Virus genome (UHGV): UHGV-0179344
DNA from: a virus
Strand: one strand, 5' to 3'
Length of the DNA stretch: 17,717 nucleotides
The notes beneath the pieces are model-generated. The model made no database searches. It was not told where the DNA came from and saw only the letters and a program-made list of their open reading frames with translations. Positions within the stretch are counted from its first letter, which is position 1; each line of letters begins with the position of its first letter. Both the position numbers and the translations under genes were made by a program. Below, piece by piece: positions 1 to 17,717 of the stretch.

Positions 1-1727
1 TCGGTGTAACGCACCAGGCCGCTCTGGAAGTTGATATTCACCTCGAAGGCGTCCAGTGTTTCGCCATCCGGGCAGGCGAGGAAAGGTCCTACCCACTCGT
101 AGTCGTCGCTGACACCCGTCACGGTGGCATCCAGCAGCGTGCGCTCGGTGAAGCCAGGCCATGACGGGTCAGGCGTCGTGATAGTCTCACCTGCCGGGCC
201 TGTGGTGACCGTTATCCGCTCAACCGTGACCGTCTGGCTGTCGATAGCCGTTATGCGGAACTGATTTCCGGCCAGCCCCAGAGAGAAACGCTGAATGCCC
301 TCCGGCAGTCCGGTGAACGGCGTGCCAGCGGCGCTATTGTAGGCCAGCGTGATGTGCGCCCTGACTTCCGCCGTGCCGCCCGCTGACTTCACGCCTGTTG
401 TATTAACCGGGGCATCCCCAAACGCAGACGCGGGTAACGGGCTGTTCGTGATGGACCCGCCAGCAAAGGGGCTGCTGGCCTCACCGATTTCGAGACGCCC
501 ACTGTTATCGCGGGCAACCAGGCCGGAACCGGAGAGCTGCGATGTGATCGACGAAGTAAGGCCCGACATGGTGACGTAGTTGGTAACCAGAGATACCGGA
601 TAGGTCGTTCCCTGCCAGCTGATGCTGAACGTCACCGGCGCGGTGCTGAAATCGTAGGTGGTCGGCGCGGCACTGGCAGTTAAGGTCGCGGCACTTCCCC
701 CTACTCCCGGCACCGCCGGAACGCCCGGGGCATAGCTGGCGATCACCAGGTCATAGTCGTTGCCGTTATAGTTCAGCGTCACCGGCATGCCGACGGACGG
801 GGCCAGTTCTTCTATTCCGCCATAAATGACGCTGTAACCGCCGGACGACACGACAGTATAGGAGTTGGGGGCCAGCACGGTGATCACCGTCCCGACTGTC
901 CAGGACGGCGGAATTTCCTCATCCCCGCCGGATGCCGATACGTCAACCAGGGTGATGGTGTTGCCGGACACGACCAGCGCATCAGCGATGATACTGACTG
1001 TTTCCGGGCCGCTTGAACCCAGATCCAGCCCGGCGGTACCGGAACCTGTATTCCCCACCTCAGGTGAGTTGAACCAGTTTTCGGTGCGCGCGTCGCCGGA
1101 TACCGTAGCGCCAGGCGGATAGATGGTGTAACGCACGTCGGTACCAAACGCGGAGATCGGCGTATTGCCTATCTTAATGTCGGACTGATTAATCACCATG
1201 TCGCCGACGCCCACGCACAGGAACATGCTGGTTTCCATACTGGTCTCGTTGACGAACCGGCTTACCGGTTGCATCACGTAATCAGGCCAGACACGATATT
1301 TCCCGAAGATTTCCCGGATGGGGTCACCCAGTTTCGCCGCGTTTGCTTTGGCAGGGTTCAGGTCAATCTGATCGCCGCTCGCCGCCTGTGCACCACTGCC
1401 GCCGGGCTGAGACATCGTACTCATCATGTAGATGCTGTAAGCCGCAGAGGCGACGGCTACGCTGACTGCAACCCAAATCGCGATTTCTGCGCCGGTACCG
1501 TATGGCACCGGGTACATTCTGACGTCAGTTTCACGTTTGATGACGCACAGTGGCCACTCTGCTGGCGGAACGGGTAGGCCGTCGATTTCAACCGCGACCG
1601 GGTGCTGCTGATCCGGCGTCCAGTCCTGCACATTCTGCGCAAACCAGGCGCTGAGGTTCATGGTTTCGTGTTGGTGCGTTTCCAGCGGCTCTCCCTGCAG
1701 TCGGGAGGGGTAGATTCGTATCGTCAC
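1..1727 (-). CDS. Large tail-tip / host-specificity protein (J-like central fibre), 5' portion only; C-terminus lies beyond the window start
   Basis: Hand translation of the minus strand from ATG 1661 to the window start gave no stop in my reading (about 553 codons); the ORF track omits it because it has no stop in the window. Predicted N-terminus MNLSAWFAQNVQDW, one hydrophobic helix (AEIAIWVAVSVAVASAAYSIY), then Gly/Thr/Ser-rich fibre-like sequence. Alternative start GTG at 1727 overlaps the upstream TGA (GTGA) with GGAG 8 nt upstream; ATG 1661 is the other candidate. Position directly after the K-like gene matches lambda-like tail-tip order. Confidence 0.55.
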   Translation of the reverse strand, partial: MTIRIYPSRLQGEPLETHQHETMNLSAWFAQNVQDWTPDQQHPVAVEIDGLPVPPAEWPLCVIKRETDVRMYPVPYGTGAEIAIWVAVSVAVASAAYSIYMMSTMSQPGGSGAQAASGDQIDLNPAKANAAKLGDPIREIFGKYRVWPDYVMQPVSRFVNETSMETSMFLCVGVGDMVINQSDIKIGNTPISAFGTDVRYTIYPPGATVSGDARTENWFNSPEVGNTGSGTAGLDLGSSGPETVSIIADALVVSGNTITLVDVSASGGDEEIPPSWTVGTVITVLAPNSYTVVSSGGYSVIYGGIEELAPSVGMPVTLNYNGNDYDLVIASYAPGVPAVPGVGGSAATLTASAAPTTYDFSTAPVTFSISWQGTTYPVSLVTNYVTMSGLTSSITSQLSGSGLVARDNSGRLEIGEASSPFAGGSITNSPLPASAFGDAPVNTTGVKSAGGTAEVRAHITLAYNSAAGTPFTGLPEGIQRFSLGLAGNQFRITAIDSQTVTVERITVTTGPAGETITTPDPSWPGFTERTLLDATVTGVSDDYEWVGPFLACPDGETLDAFEVNINFQSGLVRYT

Positions 1728-2155
1728 TGATAATACTCCACGCGGACAAAGCGGCGCGCAAATCGCGCCAGCGGCAGGAAGGTCACGTTAGTGCGGGGGT
1801 TGCATTCAGCGGCGCACATCTGGCCGTCAATCTCGACCACGATGGCAACGTGCGTCACCACTGAACCGGAATAACAGGCAATGCCCGCGCCCGGTTCAGG
1901 TTCACAACGCCGCAGATCAGCCATCAACCCGCGCGCCTCCCGATCAAGGCCGTTATCATCCTTCGTGACCCCGGCAAAATCAGGCCATGGCACCAGACCA
2001 AGGTCGCGCCTGATTTCATTAACGATGCCAAAGCAGTCGAGCGCAGGGTAAATACGCCCGCCCTTCTGCCACTCGACAGAACGGTATTTATCAGGGTTAA
2101 ACCGACCGTCTTTGCAGGATGAATTCATTATTGAGGCGCTTGATAAGCTCATCAT
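1724..2155 (-). CDS. Tail-tip NlpC/P60-family cysteine peptidase (lambda K-like, without an MPN domain)
   Basis: 143 aa with Cys in YPALDCFGIV and His in VVTHVAIVVE, the spacing expected for an NlpC/P60 catalytic pair. AAGGAG sits 5 nt upstream of ATG 2155. Position between L-like and J-like genes. Confidence 0.6.
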   Translation of the reverse strand: MMSLSSASIMNSSCKDGRFNPDKYRSVEWQKGGRIYPALDCFGIVNEIRRDLGLVPWPDFAGVTKDDNGLDREARGLMADLRRCEPEPGAGIACYSGSVVTHVAIVVEIDGQMCAAECNPRTNVTFLPLARFARRFVRVEYYQ

Positions 2156-3233: not shown

Positions 3234-6200
3234 TTAGGTCATCCTGTTTCCGCGACCCTGAGCCGCCCTGAGTGATTTACCGAACTGGCCTTTGCCTTCC
3301 AGAGTCTGATTACTAAGCTCGTTCACGAGTTGTTTGTTATTCAGCTTCAGCACTGCATCCATCTCCTGCTGAGTCATACCAGGGCTTTGCGGCATGTTGA
3401 TAATCTGGCTGATGTGGTTTGTTTGTGAACTGCCACCTGAAGAGGACTCATTCTTGCTACCCGTCCCGAAACCTGGCTTTGACAATGTGGCATCCAGCCC
3501 ACCATTGCGAATAGCCTCAAGGTTAGAGACTCCAATGCGCTTGGTTGCCGCAGCGTCAAAGACGTATTCCTGCCCATGCACAACGCCAGAGATAGACCGC
3601 GTCGCCCCATTCCCGGTGTAGCCGCCGGACTGAAACCCAACAGCCGCAGCGCTGGTAATGCTCGAGGTTATAGTGGACATAAGCCCCACAACCTGAGCAA
3701 TGGCAGCAAGGTTTGCCGGAAACGGAAGCCCGGCCAGCGCCTGCCCCATCGCCATCGGCAACTGCAGGGCTGCCTGCGCCAGCGCGAACGCTTTCTGAGT
3801 GATGAACGCCGCTTTGTACATCGCTGACTGTTCGCCAAACATCGTCCCCATAGAATCAGTGATGCTGGAGAACGAGTTTTGCGCGGACTGAGCCTGAGCA
3901 GCGTAAACAGCCATACTCATAGCCTCCTGATTCTGGTTGCCCTGCTGGCGAAGCGCGTCCAGTTGTTGCTGCTTCTTCTGCTCATTCAGGACGCTATTCA
4001 TCGTTATCGCTTTTTCCTGATCACTCAGCCATTTGGCATAATCGCCCTGAGCAGTTTTCAGCTTTTCAATAATCTCCAGTTGCGGGTCAATTTGCAGGCC
4101 GATCATGTTCATGCCCTGACCTGACAAATCATTGTTTGTTGCGCCAGATTTCAACGTCCCACCAGCGGCATTAACACCGGATATTACAGAATCAGGCAGC
4201 ACCGATTTGCTAATCAGGTCGCTCGCTTGTTGCCCTGCGGCTTCCGGCGAAAGCTGTTTAAGCGTCACCATTTTTTGTAGAATCTCCAGGCGTTTCTGGA
4301 GTGTCTCGTTTTGCCTGATCTCTTTCGGTGCGATGTCCTCCTGCATTTTCCGGTAGTCGTCGAGCGTCTTCACCTGCCCCTGCAACGCCTCCTGATTTTT
4401 ATATGCCTGCAGAATTTCTTCAGAACGGGAGAGAATAGACTTCTGGTCGGCGGTTAGTTGCGCCTTAGACTTGAGGTCTGCAATCTGCTGCTCGAACTTA
4501 ACTCTCGCCTGTGTTGCGCTGTTAAGCTTGTCACTGGCATCCAGTTGGGACTGCATGGCTGCAGTCTGCTGATTTATCTGATCAAGTAACCGGGTTGCAG
4601 CATCCTCTGTATAGGCTTTCCCCTTGGGCGCCTTGGGTGTTTTCGGGTCTTTGTAGCGGTCATTTATTTCAGAATATATTCTGTCATATTCTTCTTGAGT
4701 ATATTTCCCGCGATACTTGGATAGCTCAGCCAACTCTTTAGCACGTTGCTGCTGCCGTGTCTGATATTTCTGAGAAAAGGCATCAGCCTTCTGCTGTAGT
4801 TTTATCCCTTCCTGCTGTTTTTTAAGGTATGGGTCATAGGATTCATTAATGGCGTCCTGAGCCATTTTCTCGGACTGCAATGAAGCTAGTCGCGCTTTAG
4901 CAGCATCGACCGCCTTTTGAAGCATGGAAAGGTCGCTAGACTTCCATGCGCCATATGGCCCAGCATATTTTGATTGTCCGGCACTTAAATCAGAGAGTGA
5001 CTTTTGCGCCCTACCCAGTTCGTCCTGAGCTTCTGCTATTTTTTGATCTATAGATTTTTCACGACCTATATCTAGCATGGCATCCCAGGCACCTTTCGCG
5101 GCATCACCCAACCATTTCCATGCCTGCTCCAGTGAGCCTAGGTTACCCTGAATCTGGTCAGCACGCTGCTTCATAGTCGCAGCATACGTATCTGTCGCCA
5201 GTCTCGCAGCCTCTTGCTGATTACCCTCGTCCTGCAACGCCTTAATCTGGTTGTAGGTTGCTAGAGTCAGGAAGTGATATTTGTCGTTCAGTTCTCCGAT
5301 AGCCGCTACCGGGTTTTGTGCGATTTTCTCGAAGTCTGCCACCATGCTATCGACAGATTTATCGGTCGCATCGTTCATTGCGACAACGGCCTCCGTGACA
5401 GTCTGCATTGAACCTGTAGCGATTTTACCACCAGAAACAACACGGTTTAGTGCCTGAGCGGCGGCGGCTGTGGTATTCCCTGTGTTATCTGCGACAGATT
5501 TCGCCATGTCTGCCAATTGCCCGGTGGTTACCCCGGCAATATTCCCGGTCAGAACAAGGGACTTATTGAACTCCTGTTGCTCCTGGCTGCCTTTGTACCA
5601 GGCATATGTGAGAGTACCCACAACTGCGACAAGAGCGCCGATCCCGATAGTCATGGGATTGAGAAAGCCAGTGAGTTTTTTGGCATTCTCAGCATTTTCA
5701 GACAATGAGTTAGCGTTATCTGACAGAGAATCACTGGATTCATCGGCGGCATCTCCGGCTCCCAGTATCTGCTGTTTTATGATTTCGAAAAGATTACCCC
5801 AACCGCCAAAAGAATCGGCGATCTGCGAACCCTGCTGCATGAAGATAGTGAACAAAGGCATACCGCCAGCCAGGCCAACAGCAATATCATTCAGTTGCGC
5901 GGGGAGTAACCGCATGGCATTTTTATACTGACCTGCCGAGATAGCACCATACCGCATTTCATTGCTGACCTGATTGAGACCTTTCTCCGTCAAATCCAGC
6001 TTATTTGAAAGCTCTGCGTGGTATTCAGGAGACAGGAGTCCAGCATCCCTAGCAGCCGATAATGTCGCGCGCTGGCTTTTCAGCCTTTCCAGGGCTGCGC
6101 CAAGAGGGTCTAATTGCGAGCGTATTTGAGAGAAACTAGCCTGGAGTTTTTCATTCTCTCCAGTGAGACCACTAACCCTGTTTCTGGCATCATCAATTTT

Positions 6201-6503
6201 GGCTGCGTAATCTTCAAAACTATCAGCATCTAAGAGGCCTTTAGATTTTGCCCGAGAAAGCTCCTGCTGTTGTTTGTCTAATTTGTTGAGGGCTGCGTTG
6301 ACTGGGTCTATGCTGTCAAGCAAATCCTGAAGCGCTGACTTTTCCTCCTGAGTAGCTTTTGTCACCCTCCCTGCGCTTGCGGCTGCCTTTTGCCCCCACT
6401 CTGTTAAGCCATGAAGAGCACTGGACAAACTGCTGGCATTTTTTTCCGCGCCTGTACTGTCAATGATTATCGCAAGGCGTGATGTTTGTTCAGGCATTAC
6501 CAT
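3234..6503 (-). CDS. Tail tape measure protein
   Basis: 1089 aa, Ala/Gln/Leu/Lys-rich helical sequence with hydrophobic segments (MTIGIGALVAVVGTLTYAWY, FALAQAALQLPMAMGQALAGLPFPANLAAIAQVVGL) and a Gly-rich C-terminus; lies between the chaperone genes and the tail-tip genes. GGAGA precedes the second ATG (6497), which may be the true start. Confidence 0.85.
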   Translation of the reverse strand: MVMPEQTSRLAIIIDSTGAEKNASSLSSALHGLTEWGQKAAASAGRVTKATQEEKSALQDLLDSIDPVNAALNKLDKQQQELSRAKSKGLLDADSFEDYAAKIDDARNRVSGLTGENEKLQASFSQIRSQLDPLGAALERLKSQRATLSAARDAGLLSPEYHAELSNKLDLTEKGLNQVSNEMRYGAISAGQYKNAMRLLPAQLNDIAVGLAGGMPLFTIFMQQGSQIADSFGGWGNLFEIIKQQILGAGDAADESSDSLSDNANSLSENAENAKKLTGFLNPMTIGIGALVAVVGTLTYAWYKGSQEQQEFNKSLVLTGNIAGVTTGQLADMAKSVADNTGNTTAAAAQALNRVVSGGKIATGSMQTVTEAVVAMNDATDKSVDSMVADFEKIAQNPVAAIGELNDKYHFLTLATYNQIKALQDEGNQQEAARLATDTYAATMKQRADQIQGNLGSLEQAWKWLGDAAKGAWDAMLDIGREKSIDQKIAEAQDELGRAQKSLSDLSAGQSKYAGPYGAWKSSDLSMLQKAVDAAKARLASLQSEKMAQDAINESYDPYLKKQQEGIKLQQKADAFSQKYQTRQQQRAKELAELSKYRGKYTQEEYDRIYSEINDRYKDPKTPKAPKGKAYTEDAATRLLDQINQQTAAMQSQLDASDKLNSATQARVKFEQQIADLKSKAQLTADQKSILSRSEEILQAYKNQEALQGQVKTLDDYRKMQEDIAPKEIRQNETLQKRLEILQKMVTLKQLSPEAAGQQASDLISKSVLPDSVISGVNAAGGTLKSGATNNDLSGQGMNMIGLQIDPQLEIIEKLKTAQGDYAKWLSDQEKAITMNSVLNEQKKQQQLDALRQQGNQNQEAMSMAVYAAQAQSAQNSFSSITDSMGTMFGEQSAMYKAAFITQKAFALAQAALQLPMAMGQALAGLPFPANLAAIAQVVGLMSTITSSITSAAAVGFQSGGYTGNGATRSISGVVHGQEYVFDAAATKRIGVSNLEAIRNGGLDATLSKPGFGTGSKNESSSGGSSQTNHISQIINMPQSPGMTQQEMDAVLKLNNKQLVNELSNQTLEGKGQFGKSLRAAQGRGNRMT

Positions 6504-6514
6504 TCTCCGGACAT

Positions 6515-6543
6515 GAAAAAACCCGCCGTAGCGGGTTTTGTTT
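6515..6543 (-). terminator. Intrinsic terminator after the small secreted-protein gene (symmetric, potentially bidirectional)
   Basis: Plus strand aaaaaa-CCCGC-cgta-GCGGG-ttttgttt: a 5-bp GC stem with tetraloop flanked by A-run and T-run; on the minus strand it directly follows the TAA of 6542..6826 and precedes the tape measure RBS. Confidence 0.5.
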
Positions 6544-6826
6544 ATTGGCGAGACTTTTTATCTCTCTCGTGCTCTGAGGCTATGTAATCATAGGTGATTT
6601 TAGCATTGCGGCATTGCTTAGATGTATCCCCGTCAATAAGGCACTCTCCGTGATATCTGGAGATATTTGATGACATGCTAATAGCAGATATGAAAATAGA
6701 CTCGCACCTTTTGTCGCCATTGCACGCCTGGACCCTCATGCTATCCAGAAGTTGAACTTCCTCAATTTGTGCAAAAGAATAACCACATGAAAAAGATAGG
6801 ACCAAACCCAAAATTATTTTTTTCAC
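6542..6826 (-). CDS. Small secreted (periplasmic) cysteine-rich protein, moron gene; function unknown
   Basis: From GTG 6826: MKKIILGLVLSFSCGYSFA followed by QIEE, a classical Sec signal peptide with an AXA-like cleavage site and no lipobox; mature part about 75 aa with 4 Cys. ATG 6847 is an alternative start (gives 101 aa). Local GC is about 40% against about 55% for flanking phage genes. Confidence 0.5.
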   Translation of the reverse strand: MKKIILGLVLSFSCGYSFAQIEEVQLLDSMRVQACNGDKRCESIFISAISMSSNISRYHGECLIDGDTSKQCRNAKITYDYIASEHERDKKSRQ

Positions 6827-6856
6827 TCCACACCCCATCAGTAACATTTACCAACA

Positions 6857-6883
6857 TCGTATCAGGTGCTGATCCCGAATCAA
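6857..6883 (-). promoter_or_regulatory. Candidate sigma70 promoter for the secreted-protein gene
   Basis: On the minus strand TTGATT, 16 nt, TACGAT, ending a few nt upstream of the candidate starts. Weak match, by eye only. Confidence 0.2.
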
Positions 6884-6943
6884 CCTAACGGGGGTGAAAA
6901 TTGCGCTTAGTTGCGGGTAGACCGCCGAAGCGGGCCACGCTTG

Positions 6944-7498
6944 TTATTCAGGTAGAGCTTTGCCAAACCCGGGAAGCCTTATCTGCCCTTGCTGTTCAAT
7001 GCGCTCGATGCGAGCAAGCAGCTCGGGCTTTTTAACTCTGCCCCAGCGATTAAGCAGGCGACCTGACATGCTGGCCACGTCTTTCTCTTTCATGAACTCC
7101 AGCATGACGGCGTTTCGCTCCTCCTCAAACTGGCGCTGACCAATCTGAAGCATTGCGTACATCCAGTTGAAAGCGTTGATGTAAGCAATCTTGATCCGCA
7201 TGGCTTCTTTCTTGGTATAAGACATCACAAGAAGCATTAATCCATCCTTGCGGAGACGGTAGAACTTCTGCGGCTTACCATTCTGTAACTCATTGTTTTT
7301 ATAGCAAAGCTCAAAATTGAGCTTTGTATCAAACTCTGGAGGGCAAGCATCAATAGTCCTTTCAATATCGCGGACTACGTTTTTCGATAACTTGCCAAAT
7401 GCTTTTGCCACCATAAAAGAATCGGTAACCGGATCGTTGTTTGCTACAAAAATCAGATCGCGGAAATCGATGCCGTTAACGACTGTTGGGTAGTTCAT
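6944..7498 (-). CDS. Rha-family phage regulatory protein (N-terminal Rha domain, uncharacterised C-terminal region)
   Basis: The 287-aa track ORF has a junk Arg/Ser/Pro-rich N-terminal 103 aa that overlaps the upstream gene and terminator. From Met104 (ATG 7498, AAGG 8 nt upstream) the sequence VANNDPVTDSFMVAKAFGKLSKNVVRDIERTI ... RKDGLMLLVMSYTKKEAMRIKIAYINAFN matches my memory of the Rha-family N-terminal domain. Low GC (about 35-45%). Confidence 0.65.
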   Translation of the reverse strand: MNYPTVVNGIDFRDLIFVANNDPVTDSFMVAKAFGKLSKNVVRDIERTIDACPPEFDTKLNFELCYKNNELQNGKPQKFYRLRKDGLMLLVMSYTKKEAMRIKIAYINAFNWMYAMLQIGQRQFEEERNAVMLEFMKEKDVASMSGRLLNRWGRVKKPELLARIERIEQQGQIRLPGFGKALPE

Positions 7499-7650
7499 AG
7501 CGTGTACCTTACTTTGAGATGAACCTTTGCCGCATAGGAGATCAGCCCGTCGAGGCTCGCCAGCACTAACTGACATCCTCAAAGGCTCATTCCAAAGGGT
7601 TGGGTTCGACGTGGTTGGATGCGCTGCGGTGCGCGGTGAAATTCGGATAC

Positions 7651-7676
7651 AAAAAAGCCCCGGCGATTGCCGAGGC
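7651..7676 (-). terminator. Intrinsic terminator immediately after the GT chaperone stop
   Basis: Minus-strand RNA GCCUCGGC-AAUC-GCCGGGGC followed by UUUUUU, an 8-bp stem with one G-U pair. The pairing works only for the minus-strand transcript, matching the gene orientation. Confidence 0.5.
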
Positions 7677-8443
7677 TTATTTCTTCTTGCGGTCCTGCTC
7701 CTGCTTTTTGGCCCACTCATCGCGCCATGCGTCATCAAGTGCGAATATCGCAGCTTCAAACTCATCGCGATCGAGCTGTATGGGCCGAACAGACAGGTAT
7801 TGCTCAATGTCTCTTATGCCAAGGGGAAGCGGCGATCCCGTCATGCCTGCGTATGCCCTGGATCGGGAAATGATGGCGTATGCGCTTAGTATCTCGCCCG
7901 TTACGCCGTCTATCTCAGGCTCAGGAACGGGAGGCAACTTTAAACGCTCTCTCTTCCAGCGCTCCTTCTCTCCCTGCTCGCCGCCGTACTGGTTCAGCCA
8001 GGCTTGTGCTTCTGTGACTTTTTTACGGTTTCTTTCTTCTGCTCCGCCTTCCCTTCGGCAATCTCTGCTGCCGCTCCGAGGATTTGCCAGTAAAGCTCCG
8101 GGCGCTGCTTAAGAAGGGCCGCCCCTTTCTCTGGCGTATAGTCGATGGCTAATTCTTTACCATCTACCAGCTCGCCTACACCTTCCCAGCCTTTCAGCAG
8201 GTAATGAGCGCAGTTTTCGATAAGCAGGTCGTCAACTGAGTCGATATCGCCTACAGCAGACAGGTTGAAATCTTTCGTGCCGACCTTGTAGGTGGCATCG
8301 AGCTTTTCAATATGGCGACGTACGAGAGCGTTACGGGAGCGGTAGTGATGATTGTCCACACTGCCTACCTTCAGGCGCAGGCCTTCAATAGGCTCAATCC
8401 AGCGCTCACTGTTCAGGTCGATACGGGGTGCGATAATAATCAT
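7677..8443 (-). CDS. Tail assembly chaperone GT-like fusion made by programmed -1 frameshift (about 256 aa)
   Basis: ORF 7677..7937 is in the -1 frame relative to 7994..8443 and stays open upstream across the slippery site; the track start at 7937 is a TTG, so it has no convincing initiation codon of its own. Confidence 0.45.
7994..8443 (-). CDS. Tail assembly chaperone (lambda G-like)
   Basis: 149-aa acidic protein between the major tail and tape measure genes; the slippery heptamer lies 7 codons before its stop and a -1 frame ORF continues downstream. Confidence 0.6.
   Translation of the reverse strand: MIIIAPRIDLNSERWIEPIEGLRLKVGSVDNHHYRSRNALVRRHIEKLDATYKVGTKDFNLSAVGDIDSVDDLLIENCAHYLLKGWEGVGELVDGKELAIDYTPEKGAALLKQRPELYWQILGAAAEIAEGKAEQKKETVKKSQKHKPG
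8019..8025 (-). other. Programmed -1 ribosomal frameshift slippery heptamer A-AAA-AAG
   Basis: Minus-strand GTA AAA AAG in the G frame (plus-strand cttttttac); A AAA AAG is a well-known efficient -1 slip site in enterobacteria. Confidence 0.45.
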
Positions 8444-8458
8444 TGGATCCTCTGCATG

Positions 8459-8493
8459 AAAAAGCCCGACCCACCATGCAGCGCAGGCCGGGA
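8459..8493 (-). terminator. Possible partial terminator or stabilising stem-loop after the major tail protein gene
   Basis: Minus RNA CCCGGCC, 14-nt loop, GGUCGGG, then CUUUUU, between the major tail stop and the G start. The large loop makes it weak. Confidence 0.25.
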
Positions 8494-8501
8494 AAAGTAA
8501 G

Positions 8502-9674
8502 TTAAGGTGCGGTAACGGTGATTGCGGTTGTGGCGGTATAGGTCCGCGCTTTCGCAGTGATGATTGCTGACCCTTCAGCGACGCGGGTAACCTGCGCCGT
8601 CTTCTGGCCGGTTGAGGCGACCGTTGCCACTGCCGGATCTGATGACGACCATTGCACCGTGTCAGTAGCGCCTGTTGGCGTCAGATTTGCAGTCAGCGTT
8701 ACGGTGGAACCTTCTGCGCCAGAAGAGGTTGCCGGAGTGACTGAGATCGCCGTAGATGGCACCGTAACTGCACGAGTGATGGTTGGCGGAACGTCAGCAC
8801 CGGTAATGTTCAGCTCAACCTGTACGATGTCGGTGTTGCCGCCGTCAGGCCAGTCGCCATCAACCTGAACAGACGGCAGATTAAACGTATAGCTACCCTC
8901 ATCGTTTTCGAGGGTGAAGCTAAACGGCATCGTCTCGCCGGTCATGGTTTTACGCCAGGCGTTATAGGCCTCTTTCGACCAGGACAGCGTAATACTGCCA
9001 GACGGCGTGAACGTAGTCGGGATGTTTGCGCCTGCAAACGGGTTGCCCGTCCCGATACAGCGCTGGGTTTGCAGGTTGTTGTCAAACTGGATGTTGAAAG
9101 AATCGACACAGAAGCCGTCGCCGCCATCAATGCCATTCAGGTTGATGTTCGTCACCTGCTTGAACGAGTAACGCATCTCCCCGGCGTTATCGACAGGGTT
9201 GGTGAAGAAGCTCGTGTCTTCCGCGTTACCATCCCATCCAAGCCCAGCAAAGGTGACGGTCGCTTCAATGTCGCCGTCGTTTGGTACTTCAATCTGGAAC
9301 ACGCCAACCTGAGCGCCGCGGGCGATTGATGCGACACCGATATCGTCAGCGTATGACGCTACAGAGAAGGTGATACGCTGATTCCCCATCGTCAGGACGT
9401 TGTTGACCCACTCGGAACCAAAACACGAAGCGAGAAAGTCATCATGCTGCCCCCAACGGAACTTGGTTACCACGTCACCGCCTACATCGGTAGTGCCGGG
9501 GCTGCGGCCTTGCGCCATTCGGGTGCCGCCAATTTCGTCGTTGTCGATCATGTTTTGGGTTGGACCAAGGCCAAATGAACTGCGCTTCAGCAGATTCCAC
9601 GCGCCTGTGGTCGGCGTGATGCCGGGGGTAGTTTCACGGATATACGCCGTGACGTTCTTTGCGCCTGAGCTCAC
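8502..9674 (-). CDS. Major tail (tube) protein with C-terminal Ig-like domain
   Basis: 390 aa; AAGGAGG 6 nt upstream of GTG 9674; the C-terminal ~100 aa is Thr/Ser/Ala/Val-rich beta-type sequence (TVTLTANLTPTGATDTVQWSSSDPAVATVASTGQ) typical of Big_2-like Ig domains on tail tube proteins. Confidence 0.75.
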   Translation of the reverse strand: MSSGAKNVTAYIRETTPGITPTTGAWNLLKRSSFGLGPTQNMIDNDEIGGTRMAQGRSPGTTDVGGDVVTKFRWGQHDDFLASCFGSEWVNNVLTMGNQRITFSVASYADDIGVASIARGAQVGVFQIEVPNDGDIEATVTFAGLGWDGNAEDTSFFTNPVDNAGEMRYSFKQVTNINLNGIDGGDGFCVDSFNIQFDNNLQTQRCIGTGNPFAGANIPTTFTPSGSITLSWSKEAYNAWRKTMTGETMPFSFTLENDEGSYTFNLPSVQVDGDWPDGGNTDIVQVELNITGADVPPTITRAVTVPSTAISVTPATSSGAEGSTVTLTANLTPTGATDTVQWSSSDPAVATVASTGQKTAQVTRVAEGSAIITAKARTYTATTAITVTAP

Positions 9675-16016: not shown

Positions 16017-17113
16017 TTATCTTCTGAATGTAACAGGTGCCGACTTCAGCACGTCCCGTTTTTTCTGCGTTACTGCAAAGTATCTGAATCCGTCAGATCC
16101 GTGCGATGTCCAGTCGTGAAGTGGCTTGTCTTTCCAGCACCCTCGCTTGTCATCCCACTCCTTGCGATAGCTCTCCAGGGCGTTAAGTCCTTCTTCGCAT
16201 TTCACGTCATCAAAGGCGCATCGCGGGAGGATTTCACGCACCTGCTCGATACCGTCGTCAACGCCAAGCTTTGGCACCACCTGGAAGGTGATCCCATATC
16301 TGGTGCCGTCAATTTCGTAGCCTTCACGCGCCAGCTCTCGCCGGGTCTTGGCATCAGAACCGAACTCGCGGTTGTCAATATCGTGCGGCCCCCAGTGAGC
16401 GGCATAGGTATAGCCTTTATCCTTCAGCACCTTCATGTAATGGCGCAGGCCCTCACCGCTGTTCTCGTAGTAGTCGATGACGTGATACTCCTCGCCAACG
16501 ATGCGAACGAACCAGATAGCGGTGGAGTCGCTGACCCCGATATCCCAGAAGGTGTGGACAGGGAGGTGAGAGTTATCAGGAAGAGCACCAATGCGCTTCT
16601 GCTCGTAGAGCTTGCGGAACTGCTTAGCGTAGTAGGCACCTTCAACCGACTGCTGGAATGCTTCCGCTGGGATTGACGGATACTCCCGCTTCATGTCATC
16701 GCCGAGCGTTTTCTCTTTGGCGTAATACCAGGCCCGCTGACGCTCGTTAAGCACAATGCCGTACTTCGCCTCAAGCTCAGCGAAATAATCGCTCAGCCGC
16801 TGCGGTAGAGCCTCTACGGGGTCAATTGCATACAGGGCATTCTTCCACCAACTGAAAAAGAAGAATTTCCAGTCTAGAGATGAGAGCAACTTGCCCTGAA
16901 GTTGTGCTTTCTCAGCCGACTGACAGTAATCGAAGAAGTAACCAGCCCGGCCTTCCGCAGTGCTTTCAATCGTCGTGAAACAGTCGCTTGATACTGCCTC
17001 AAAAGCACCAGTGACAATCTCTCGGGCCTTGTCGGGAAACTTGGCGCAGATCTTCCCGAACTCGGAAACGTGCAGGTAGCGCAGCGTACCGCCACGGAAA
17101 GATGTGCTGATAT
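16017..17113 (-). pseudogene. Terminase large subunit, 5'-truncated by IS insertion (ATPase N-terminus missing, nuclease domain present)
   Basis: Track ORF 16017..17195 contains FWDIGVSDSTAIWF and WGPHDID, terminase nuclease-type acidic motifs, but its first ~27 codons lie inside the IS terminal repeat region. There is no Walker A and no plausible start downstream of the junction. Confidence 0.6.

Positions 17114-17717
<604 letters not shown>

What the first reader, a model, noticed from the sequence alone, without database searches (positions are those of the whole stretch)
6515..7676. Low-GC two-gene moron island inside the tail module, bracketed by intrinsic terminators
Between the GT chaperone and the tape measure gene, where lambda-like phages normally have nothing, sit a Rha-family gene and a small secreted Cys-rich protein gene. 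Hand-counted 60-bp windows give roughly 35-48% GC here against about 55% for the flanking structural genes. A terminator follows the GT stop (7651..7676) and another precedes the tape measure RBS (6515..6543), so the pair looks like an independently acquired and independently transcribed cargo cassette. Such morons often carry lysogenic-conversion, exclusion or defence functions, so this is the best candidate for an undescribed system in the window.
Basis: partly seen in the sequence, partly recalled or inferred. Interest (0 to 1): 0.75.

Follow-up and report, generated by a model that had tools for sequence, protein, structure and literature searches.

The report
Two separate morons before tape-measure gene
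Between the tail chaperone and tape-measure genes of this prophage sit two independently acquired add-on genes: a widely travelled Rha regulator cassette with its own terminator and structured RNA leader, and a rare small periplasmic protein that may block rival phages. This is the classic site for such add-ons, so the case is an instructive example, not a new kind of system.

Summary
Region 6515-7676 is the lowest-GC stretch of the window (47.1% vs 54.0%). It contains a Rha-family gene (6944-7498) and a small secreted four-cysteine protein gene (6542-6826), with genuine terminator hairpins at 7678-7655 and 6539-6516.

The interpretation needs correcting in four ways.
- The two genes are separate units, not a pair. 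One relative (L007) has the small gene alone, with a clean empty site for a 761-bp rha module (6916-7676).
- The upstream terminator belongs to the rha module. Terminator, ~135-nt structured leader and gene normally sit between the lysis and terminase genes (P22, ES18, over 80 viral contigs). The leader matches the P22 small RNA P22F and precedes interchangeable Rha, KilA-N, Bro-N, Ant or HNH genes.
- The downstream terminator also occurs in relatives whose junction is empty.
- The chaperone/tape-measure junction is the site of the first described moron, HK97 gene 15. In relatives it is a hotspot for envelope-protein genes.

The small protein belongs to a rare family (19 clusters) of three-helix periplasmic proteins with no known homologue. 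In prophages it is almost always next to the tape-measure gene. Superinfection exclusion is the likeliest role, but this is untested.

The parts
7994..8443 (-). Tail assembly chaperone G (YdaY type)
   Evidence: PHROG 313, E=9e-35. PF27119 Phage_YdaY is recorded on the identical protein in L144.
8018..8024 (-). A_AAA_AAG -1 slippery heptamer that gives the G-T fusion
   Evidence: Read directly from the sequence. The -1 frame continues into the T ORF.
7677..7937 (-). T-frame extension of the chaperone (GT)
   Evidence: PHROG 1189, E=4e-33, and a weak hit to the C-terminal part of PHROG 313.
6916..7676 (.). 761-bp rha module (terminator, leader, rha and 28 nt of 3' flank), inserted relative to the rha-less relative L007
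   Evidence: In L007 the T stop codon is followed directly by CGCAACTCCGTGCAAC, which matches window 6915 downward. Nucleotide similarity to E. coli prophages covers 6944-7685 only.
7655..7678 (-). Intrinsic terminator; it is the 5' end of the rha module, not a feature of the GT gene
   Evidence: 10-bp stem, U6 tail, -18.8 kcal/mol. The homologous terminator follows Rz/Rz1 in ES18 (annotated as a terminator), in P22 and in an E. coli prophage.
7505..7638 (-). Conserved structured non-coding leader: short hairpin 7621-7634, long imperfect hairpin 7512-7597, and the P22F sRNA homologue 7505-7591. It ends at the Shine-Dalgarno sequence and ATG of rha.
   Evidence: Found in 86 phage records and 120 viral-contig loci. 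Indels break any reading frame. Of 37 predicted pairs, 98.9% of cells are paired, 6 pairs show compensatory changes, and 0 of 500 shuffles match this. There is no Rfam hit. The 89-nt RNA P22F was detected in P22 infection (PMC13397905).
6944..7498 (-). rha: Rha-family DNA-binding regulator with a C-terminal ORF11CD3 domain (184 aa)
   Evidence: Pfam PF09669 E=2e-21, PF10549 E=6e-22, PHROG 518 E=7e-80, TIGR02681 E=5e-24.
6856..6883 (-). Weak sigma-70-like site TTGATT-N16-TACGAT (8 of 12 matches), overlapping the inverted repeat ATCAG-N3-CTGAT, upstream of the small gene
   Evidence: Read directly from the sequence. It is conserved in L007 and partly in Serratia L016. It falls below the threshold of the promoter scan.
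6542..6826 (-). Gene for a 94-aa precursor of a small periplasmic four-Cys three-helix protein. The likely start is GTG at 6826; an upstream ATG at 6847 would give 101 aa.
6516..6539 (-). Intrinsic terminator (hairpins on both strands), about 10 nt before the TMP Shine-Dalgarno sequence
   Evidence: -14.6 kcal/mol, U6 tail. An equivalent hairpin is present before TMP in relatives with an empty junction, L010 and L012, and after the small gene in L007, L006, L013 and L016.
3234..6503 (-). Tape measure protein (1089 aa)
   Evidence: Pfam TMP_2 E=1e-59, TMP_4 E=5e-24, PHROG 24 E=4e-214.

Best explanation
The interval between the GT chaperone and the tape-measure gene is a moron insertion hotspot of this Rac/YdaY-type siphovirus tail module. 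Here it holds two unrelated accessory units that were acquired separately.

Unit 1 (6916-7676) is a portable cassette made of terminator, structured leader and gene.
- Its usual home is the junction between the lysis and terminase genes of lambdoid phages.
- It has no promoter of its own, so it is most likely transcribed only by terminator-resistant late transcription during lytic growth.
- Its ~135-nt leader folds into a conserved long hairpin that abuts the ribosome-binding site. In P22 this hairpin accumulates as the 89-nt RNA P22F.
- The leader probably controls processing or translation of whichever DNA-binding gene follows it. Here that gene is Rha; elsewhere it is KilA-N, Bro-N, an Ant-like gene or an HNH-AP2 gene.

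Unit 2 (about 6516-6915) has the classic moron layout: a weak promoter-like site, a low-GC gene and a terminator.
- The gene encodes a Sec-exported, disulfide-bonded three-helix periplasmic protein.
- By position it parallels HK97 gp15. By architecture it parallels small periplasmic exclusion proteins.
- In relatives the same slot is filled with other envelope-targeted proteins.
- The most likely role is therefore modification of the lysogen's envelope to exclude superinfecting phages at the DNA-entry step, possibly aimed at tape-measure-dependent passage through the periplasm.

Shown: the anatomy, the independent acquisition of the two units, the conservation and covariation of the leader, and the export signal and fold class of the small protein.
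Inferred: the timing of expression, the role of the leader, and the exclusion function.
For: Independent acquisition:
- L007 has G, T, the small gene and TMP with no rha, and shows a clean 761-bp indel.
- Only 6944-7685 has nucleotide similarity to other phages. In those phages the module lies after Rz and before the terminase gene.
- Of 121 leader instances in viral contigs, at least 81 lie just after lysis genes and none lie next to G, T or TMP homologues.

Hotspot:
- The junction is empty in L010, L011 and L012.
- It holds lipoproteins (PHROG 7441 and 890), a 117-aa secreted ORF, membrane zinc-ribbon proteins, or 2.5 kb of genes in L003, L004, L006, L008, L009 and L013.
- HK97 gp15 lies at the same junction and is a proven exclusion protein (PMC3594210).

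Leader:
- Conservation stops exactly at the ATG. Frames are broken by indels, and the downstream genes come from five different domain families.
- The structure is supported by covariation.
- The RNA P22F was detected experimentally.

Small protein:
- Signal peptide and four invariant Cys.
- Confident three-helix model.
- The gene lies adjacent to TMP in 6 of the 7 distinct contexts examined, across several tail-tip types.
- GC 40%.
Against: - There are no expression data for this prophage.
- The promoter-like site upstream of the small gene matches only 8 of 12 positions. In L004 and L013 the small gene has no promoter of its own, because it sits directly after another gene or that gene's terminator.
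- Nothing links the small protein to exclusion by homology. There is no PADLOC hit, no similarity to YebO/gp15, and T4 Spackle was not among the listed fold matches.
- One distant family member lies in a non-phage island (L014).
- The leader is so conserved that covariation rests on only 6 pairs.
- The reported P22F ends could be read-mapping boundaries rather than true processing sites.
Confidence: 0.6

Rival explanations
1. One reading: rha and the small gene form one functional two-gene cargo cassette, for example a regulator plus an effector defence system. The cassette is insulated by its own pair of terminators and is expressed in the lysogen.
For: The two genes are adjacent, both have GC below the flanks, and terminators lie on either side. 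The same arrangement is 100% identical in an independent metagenome contig, L144.
Against: The two genes occur apart everywhere else examined: the small gene without rha in L004, L006, L007, L013 and L016, and rha modules without the small gene in more than 100 loci. There is a clean indel boundary between them. The upstream terminator is part of the rha module, and the downstream one also occurs at empty junctions. There is no PADLOC hit.
Confidence: 0.07
2. The small protein is not an exclusion factor. Instead it serves the phage's own lytic cycle or virion, for example as a periplasmic factor that assists or times lysis or tape-measure/DNA passage. It would be expressed from the late operon, and its linkage to TMP would reflect a functional partnership.
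For: The gene is adjacent to TMP in 6 of 7 contexts, upstream or downstream, across different tail-tip types. In L004 and L013 it has no promoter of its own and would be co-transcribed. It sits inside the late operon, upstream of a terminator that late transcription must read through.
Against: Close relatives with the same chaperone and TMP type lack the gene entirely (L010-L012). The family is very rare, with 19 clusters. A Sec signal peptide places the protein in the producer's periplasm, away from cytoplasmic tail assembly. Its low GC marks it as foreign. One member lies outside any prophage.
Confidence: 0.15
3. The small protein is a lysogenic-conversion factor aimed at something other than phages, for example protection against host lysozyme, colicins or antimicrobial peptides, or a colonisation factor. 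Lambda Bor and Lom are examples of this kind.
For: It is a periplasmic, disulfide-stabilised small protein with the moron layout. Its hosts are Enterobacterales associated with animals and plants: Klebsiella, Pantoea, Proteus, Serratia and Salmonella. One copy lies in a non-phage island.
Against: There is no similarity to the Ivy, PliC or MliC inhibitors, to Bor, or to any Pfam family. The tight positional association with TMP genes is not explained.
Confidence: 0.15
4. The conserved sequence upstream of rha is not a functional RNA. It would be a recombination 'linker' kept similar by frequent recent exchange between phages.
For: Identity is very high (about 85-90%) across phages. Conservation covers loops as well as stems. 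Module boundaries coincide with it.
Against: Compensatory changes keep 98.9% of cells paired, against 35-47% in the slid controls. Conservation persists where both flanks differ and across six host genera, including a 72%-identical Erwinia copy that keeps the helices. A discrete 89-nt RNA with these bounds is seen in P22 infection.
Confidence: 0.15

Closest known systems
HK97 gene 15 moron (gp15, YebO-like inner-membrane superinfection exclusion protein)
   Same: It occupies the identical genomic position, between the tail assembly chaperone (G/GT) and the tape-measure gene (PMC3594210). Both are small envelope-targeted proteins. Both are present in some relatives and absent in others, and both have deviant GC.
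   Different: There is no sequence relationship: Pfam returned no family at all for the small protein, so no YebO-family match appeared. gp15 is membrane-anchored, whereas this protein has a cleavable signal peptide and a soluble three-helix four-Cys domain. The function of this protein is untested.
P22 / ES18 / phi80 rha locus (terminator after Rz, leader, rha) and the P22 small RNA P22F
   Same: The terminator and the ~135-nt leader are about 85% identical to those of P22 and ES18. The Rha domain is the same Pfam family. The window's 7505-7591 aligns with the 89-nt P22F RNA.
   Different: Here the module is in the tail operon (T|TMP) rather than between the lysis and terminase genes; none of 121 other instances examined was next to G, T or TMP homologues. 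The Rha coding sequence is of the E. coli-prophage type, with an ORF11CD3 C-terminal domain, and is unrelated at nucleotide level to ES18 gp79.
T4 Spackle (gp61.3), a small periplasmic exclusion protein (comparison from my own knowledge)
   Same: Both have a Sec signal peptide and a mature periplasmic protein of roughly 75 aa that is all-helical and disulfide-containing. Both are phage-encoded.
Cor / Llp-type prophage lipoproteins that block receptors
   Same: They are small, exported, prophage-encoded proteins. Neighbouring occupants of the same slot in L004 and L006 are lipoproteins whose signal peptides weakly match the Cor PHROG.
   Different: The protein here has no canonical lipobox. The Cys in its signal peptide is not conserved in distant family members, so signal peptidase I cleavage at SFA|Q is expected.

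Membership tests
Moron (as defined for HK97/HK022 by Juhala et al. 2000, summarised in PMC3594210) | Extra DNA that is present in one phage and absent at the same junction in relatives | tested here: met
   rha module: the window compared with L007 shows a clean 761-bp indel. Both genes are absent in L010, L011 and L012.
Moron (as defined for HK97/HK022 by Juhala et al. 2000, summarised in PMC3594210) | Base composition that differs from the surrounding genes | tested here: met
   Small gene: GC 40.4%, GC3 42.1%, against about 55% and 56-66% in the head and tail genes. rha: GC 46.1% but a normal GC3 of 54.6%, so this is weaker.
Moron (as defined for HK97/HK022 by Juhala et al. 2000, summarised in PMC3594210) | Own promoter upstream | tested here: inconclusive
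   Small gene: TTGATT-N16-TACGAT matches 8 of 12 positions. It is conserved in L007 but falls below the scan threshold. rha: no promoter-like site; the unit begins with a terminator.
Moron (as defined for HK97/HK022 by Juhala et al. 2000, summarised in PMC3594210) | Factor-independent terminator downstream of the gene | tested here: met
   Met for the small gene (6539-6516, -14.6 kcal/mol), although relatives with an empty junction also have a terminator there. Not met for rha, where only a 4-bp TTCG hairpin without a U-tract follows the stop codon.
Moron (as defined for HK97/HK022 by Juhala et al. 2000, summarised in PMC3594210) | Expression from the repressed prophage | not testable with these tools
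   This needs RNA-seq or a reporter assay in the lysogen.
Rha family (Pfam PF09669 / TIGR02681) | Rha N-terminal DNA-binding domain scoring above the curated cut-off | tested here: met
   PF09669 76.8 bits (cut-off 29.9); TIGR02681 84.4 bits (cut-off 45.95).
Rha family (Pfam PF09669 / TIGR02681) | Interference with lytic growth in IHF-deficient hosts, the phenotype that named rha | not testable with these tools
   A genetic test is needed. The ES18 record's note on gp79 cites this phenotype.
HK97 gp15 / YebO-like exclusion proteins | Sequence similarity to YebO/gp15 and a single membrane anchor | tested here: not met
   The Pfam and NCBIfam scans returned no family for the small protein. It has a cleavable signal peptide and a soluble helical domain. 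A direct comparison with gp15 was not run.
Bacterial lipoproteins (Cor/Llp-like) | Lipobox L-[AS]-[GA]-C at the end of the signal peptide, with a conserved Cys | tested here: not met
   The context is LSFSC, and this Cys is absent in P0012, P0014, P0015 and P0018.
rha-leader / P22F RNA element | Homology to the conserved leader, ending at the start codon, with both hairpins retained | tested here: met
   Window 7505-7638 aligns throughout with the P22, ES18, Stx-phage, Klebsiella, Hafnia and Erwinia copies. The hairpins are kept and the sequence matches the published P22F RNA.
Known anti-phage defence systems (PADLOC-DB 2.0) | Match to any model | tested here: not met
   No hit for either protein at E<=0.1.

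The most novel reading that the evidence does not exclude
Two undescribed things may be hiding in an ordinary-looking moron site.

(1) The rare four-Cys three-helix periplasmic protein may be a new class of superinfection-exclusion factor. It would intercept tape-measure-mediated DNA passage in the periplasm, and that is why it stays genetically linked to TMP genes across different tail types.

(2) The ~135-nt leader, of which P22F is the hairpin, may be a widespread and so far uncurated cis-regulatory RNA. It would act as a common 'socket' controlling processing or translation of interchangeable and potentially toxic DNA-binding genes (Rha, KilA-N, Bro-N, Ant-N, HNH-AP2) in the late operons of enterobacterial temperate phages.
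Probability: 0.3. Interest if true: 0.65.

Novelty: new member of a known kind. Interest (0 to 1): 0.42.

Why it matters
The case shows that the chaperone/tape-measure junction, where the first moron was found, is a general hotspot for envelope-directed cargo in Rac/YdaY-type tails. That makes it a good place to mine for exclusion factors.

The small protein is a compact orphan family with a confident predicted structure, and its effect on phage DNA entry can be tested directly.

The conserved leader gives a structural and comparative context to a P22 small RNA reported in 2026 with no known function. It also suggests a shared post-transcriptional control for the much-shuffled Rha, KilA, Bro and Ant gene families, whose roles in temperate phages remain poorly understood.

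Tried and rejected
- **Family scans.** Pfam, PHROGs, NCBIfam and PADLOC gave nothing for the small protein. tblastn against 50,697 phage records found no match. A PDB sequence profile search found nothing meaningful.
- **First structure model.** With 9 sequences and the signal peptide included, the model was poor (pLDDT 59). It was superseded by the mature-domain model built from 15 sequences (pLDDT 94.7).
- **Exhaustive HMMER search.** A profile search of 1.84 billion representatives added only a handful of relatives.
- **Rfam.** No family matched in the leader. The weak sub-threshold hits (rsmX, MarS, isrJ) sit on the terminators and were dismissed.
- **Leader as coding sequence.** The leader might have encoded an N-terminal extension of Rha: the 287-aa ORF 6944-7807 is open through it, and the annotated P22 start lies inside it. 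This was rejected because indels break the frame in the ES18 and E. coli copies, and conservation continues across unrelated downstream genes.
- **Leader as promoter.** No sigma-70-like site was found on either strand (and inspection).
- **Lipoprotein reading.** Rejected for the small protein.
- **Literature on Rha regulation.** The 1995 Henthorn and Friedman paper is not held, and other searches were uninformative.
Full report
**1. Anatomy**

All genes in the window run on the minus strand: terminase, portal, head, tail tube, G/GT, [island], TMP, then the tail tip.
- The tail tube protein (8502-9674) carries Phage_tube_2 and Big_2 domains.
- G (7994-8443) is a YdaY-type chaperone, PHROG 313.
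- The T frame (7677-7937) is PHROG 1189. It is reached by a canonical A_AAA_AAG slippery heptamer at 8024-8018.
- TMP (3234-6503) carries TMP_2 and TMP_4.

Between the T stop codon and the TMP ribosome-binding site lie, in order:
- a terminator hairpin (7678-7655);
- about 155 nt of non-coding DNA;
- a 184-aa Rha-family gene (6944-7498; Phage_pRha plus ORF11CD3);
- 117 nt of spacer;
- a 94-aa ORF (6542-6826);
- a second terminator (6539-6516).

**2.

- The interval 6515-7676 has 47.1% GC, against 54.0% for the window. The lowest-GC window of that size in the whole sequence starts at 6381.
- The signal is uneven. The small gene is clearly foreign (GC 40.4%, GC3 42.1%). rha is low mainly at codon position 2, and its GC3 of 54.6% is ordinary. 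TMP itself is only 50.5%.
- Both hairpins are good intrinsic terminators: -18.8 and -14.6 kcal/mol, each with a U6 tail, and z-scores of -4.7 and -4.2.
- A comparable hairpin follows the tail tube gene (8492-8465). This late operon therefore tolerates terminators, and it is presumably read by antiterminated polymerase (inference).

**3. The two genes are separate acquisitions**

- Only 6944-7685 has nucleotide similarity to other phages and to 233 E. coli genomes.
- In an E. coli prophage, in ES18 and in P22, this same unit of terminator, leader and rha sits after Rz/Rz1 and before the terminase genes.
- A metagenomic relative, L007, has G, T, the small gene and TMP with no rha. There the T stop codon is followed directly by the sequence found at window 6915 downward. 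This defines a clean 761-bp insertion, 6916-7676.
- The 'terminator after the GT stop' is therefore the 5' end of the mobile rha module.
- The exact window arrangement recurs 100% identically in an ENA metagenome contig, L144.

**4. The junction is a hotspot and the archetypal moron site**

Among phages with the same chaperone type:
- the T|TMP junction is empty in E. coli vB_EcoS-673R7, Salmonella SPF_0923 and Erwinia Gungnir39;
- it holds a 117-aa secreted ORF in Klebsiella phage 5 LV-2017;
- it holds a lipoprotein plus a membrane zinc-ribbon protein in ST846-OXA48phi9.2;
- it holds 2.5 kb of genes in ST405-OXA48phi1.3;
- it holds lipoproteins (PHROG 7441 and 890) followed by the small Cys gene in K. 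pneumoniae and Pantoea.

The empty relatives still carry a terminator hairpin just before the TMP ribosome-binding site. The downstream terminator is therefore at least partly a feature of the backbone. However, a terminator plus the motif 'ATGYCCGGAGA' also follows the small gene where it sits between TMP and the minor tail gene M in Serratia.

The literature confirms that the first element ever called a moron, HK97 gene 15, lies between the tail assembly chaperone and tape-measure genes. It encodes an inner-membrane superinfection-exclusion protein (PMC3594210).

**5. The small protein**

- It has no Pfam, PHROG, NCBIfam or PADLOC match.
- The family is very rare. There are 10 clusters by single-sequence search and 19 by profile search among 5.8 billion. 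An exhaustive HMMER scan of 1.84 billion representatives found 7 at E<=0.001, one of them a 2,497-aa protein judged to be a spurious low-complexity match.
- Members are 89-98 aa long. They have a signal peptide ending in a small-x-small site (SFA|Q here) and four invariant cysteines (C-x5-C ... C-x9-C). The extra Cys in the signal peptide is not conserved, so this is not a lipoprotein.
- With 15 sequences, AlphaFold2 gives a confident three-helix model for the mature domain (pLDDT 94.7).
- Genomic contexts: directly upstream of TMP in the window, L004, L006, L007 and Proteus L013; directly downstream of TMP in Serratia L016; and once in a non-phage island in Salmonella, L014.
- Upstream there is only a weak sigma-70-like site, TTGATT-N16-TACGAT (8 of 12 matches), overlapping the inverted repeat ATCAG-N3-CTGAT. 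It is conserved in L007 and partly in L016.

*Inference.* This is a Sec-exported, DsbA-oxidised periplasmic protein. Three lines point to superinfection exclusion at the DNA-entry step as its most likely role (about 35-40%): its position, which is that of HK97 gp15; its neighbours in other phages, which are lipoproteins and membrane proteins; and its persistent linkage to TMP genes. None of this has been demonstrated.

**6. The rha module and its leader**

- The ~135 nt between the terminator and the rha ATG are about 85-90% identical in 86 phage records, including P22, ES18, BTP1, Stx phages, Klebsiella RothC, Hafnia Meifeng and an Enterobacter phage. Erwinia vB_EhrS_49 has a copy at 72% identity.
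- This holds even where the downstream coding sequence is unrelated.
- Indels break any reading frame, so the leader is non-coding. The 287-aa ORF that runs through it is spurious, and the start annotated for P22 ORF201 lies inside the hairpin.
- In those loci, conservation ends exactly at the Shine-Dalgarno sequence and ATG. The gene that follows belongs to one of five families: Rha, KilA-N, Bro-N, P22_AR_N or HNH_3+AP2.
- RNAalifold predicts a short hairpin (7621-7634) and a long imperfect hairpin (7512-7597).
- On 48 non-redundant sequences, 98.9% of cells pair, 6 pairs show compensatory changes, and 0 of 500 shuffles reach the observed values. Slid controls pair at only 35-47%.
- Rfam 15 has no matching family.
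- A 2026 paper reports an 89-nt P22 small RNA, P22F, with no known function. Its sequence is exactly this long hairpin, and its 3' end lies 6 nt before the rha start codon (PMC13397905). The window homologue is 7505-7591.
- At least 81 of 121 leader instances follow lysis genes, and none is next to G, T or TMP homologues. The tail-operon location seen here is therefore an unusual relocation.

*Inference.* The module has no promoter and is expressed by late read-through. The leader is a cis-acting element that controls processing or translation of a potentially harmful DNA-binding protein.

**7. Verdict**

- It is wrong in treating the pair as one insulated cassette, in the origin it assigns to the terminators, and in calling the site unusual.
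- The kind of feature is known. The small-protein family and the leader RNA are the parts worth an experiment.

Noticed in passing
window 7505-7638 (minus strand); also L001, L002 and L018-L143: A conserved structured leader RNA lies upstream of rha. It is the homologue of the P22 small RNA P22F. It is shared by more than 100 phages and precedes interchangeable Rha, KilA-N, Bro-N, Ant-N and HNH-AP2 genes. It is not in Rfam.
   Followed up: yes
window 17118-17717: An IS3-family (IS911-like) element, with an rve transposase ORF at 17122-17625, abuts and apparently truncates the large terminase gene (ORF 16017-17195). The prophage may therefore be defective.
   Followed up: partly
window 8465-8492 (minus strand): A third strong terminator-like hairpin (-18 kcal/mol, U5 tail) lies between the tail tube gene and G. 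It is probably an attenuator that sets the tube-to-chaperone ratio.
   Followed up: partly
L008 5873-6310; L009 4308-4739; L013 4382-4993: A recurrent protein of 143-203 aa, with a zinc-ribbon domain, sits immediately upstream of TMP in Klebsiella and Proteus prophages. The L013 copy also carries DUF2545, and the L009 copy is annotated as a membrane protein. It is another family that favours this slot.
   Followed up: partly
L013 1166-4993 (Proteus terrae): Upstream of the small gene and TMP lie a cI-like HTH/S24 repressor on the opposite strand, two Bro-N proteins and other genes. Either the T|TMP slot is unusually large here or the prophage is rearranged.
   Followed up: no
L018 1276 (P22 rha, ORF201) and window ORF 6944-7807: The annotated start of P22 rha lies inside the conserved leader hairpin. 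The ATG at the end of the leader, conserved across all families, is the more likely start, so the P22 Rha N-terminus is probably over-extended in the records.
   Followed up: partly
window 1-2000: The left end of the window is markedly richer in GC (58-63%) than the rest (about 54%) and has few long minus-strand ORFs. It may be a different module or host DNA.
   Followed up: no
L144 5597-5902: In the 100%-identical metagenome contig the small gene was not called by the gene predictor. This explains why the exact protein is missing from the protein collection, and it suggests that the family is under-counted.
   Followed up: yes
window 6856-6883 (minus strand): A perfect inverted repeat, ATCAG-N3-CTGAT, overlaps the weak promoter-like site upstream of the small gene and is conserved in L007. 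It could be an operator.
   Followed up: no
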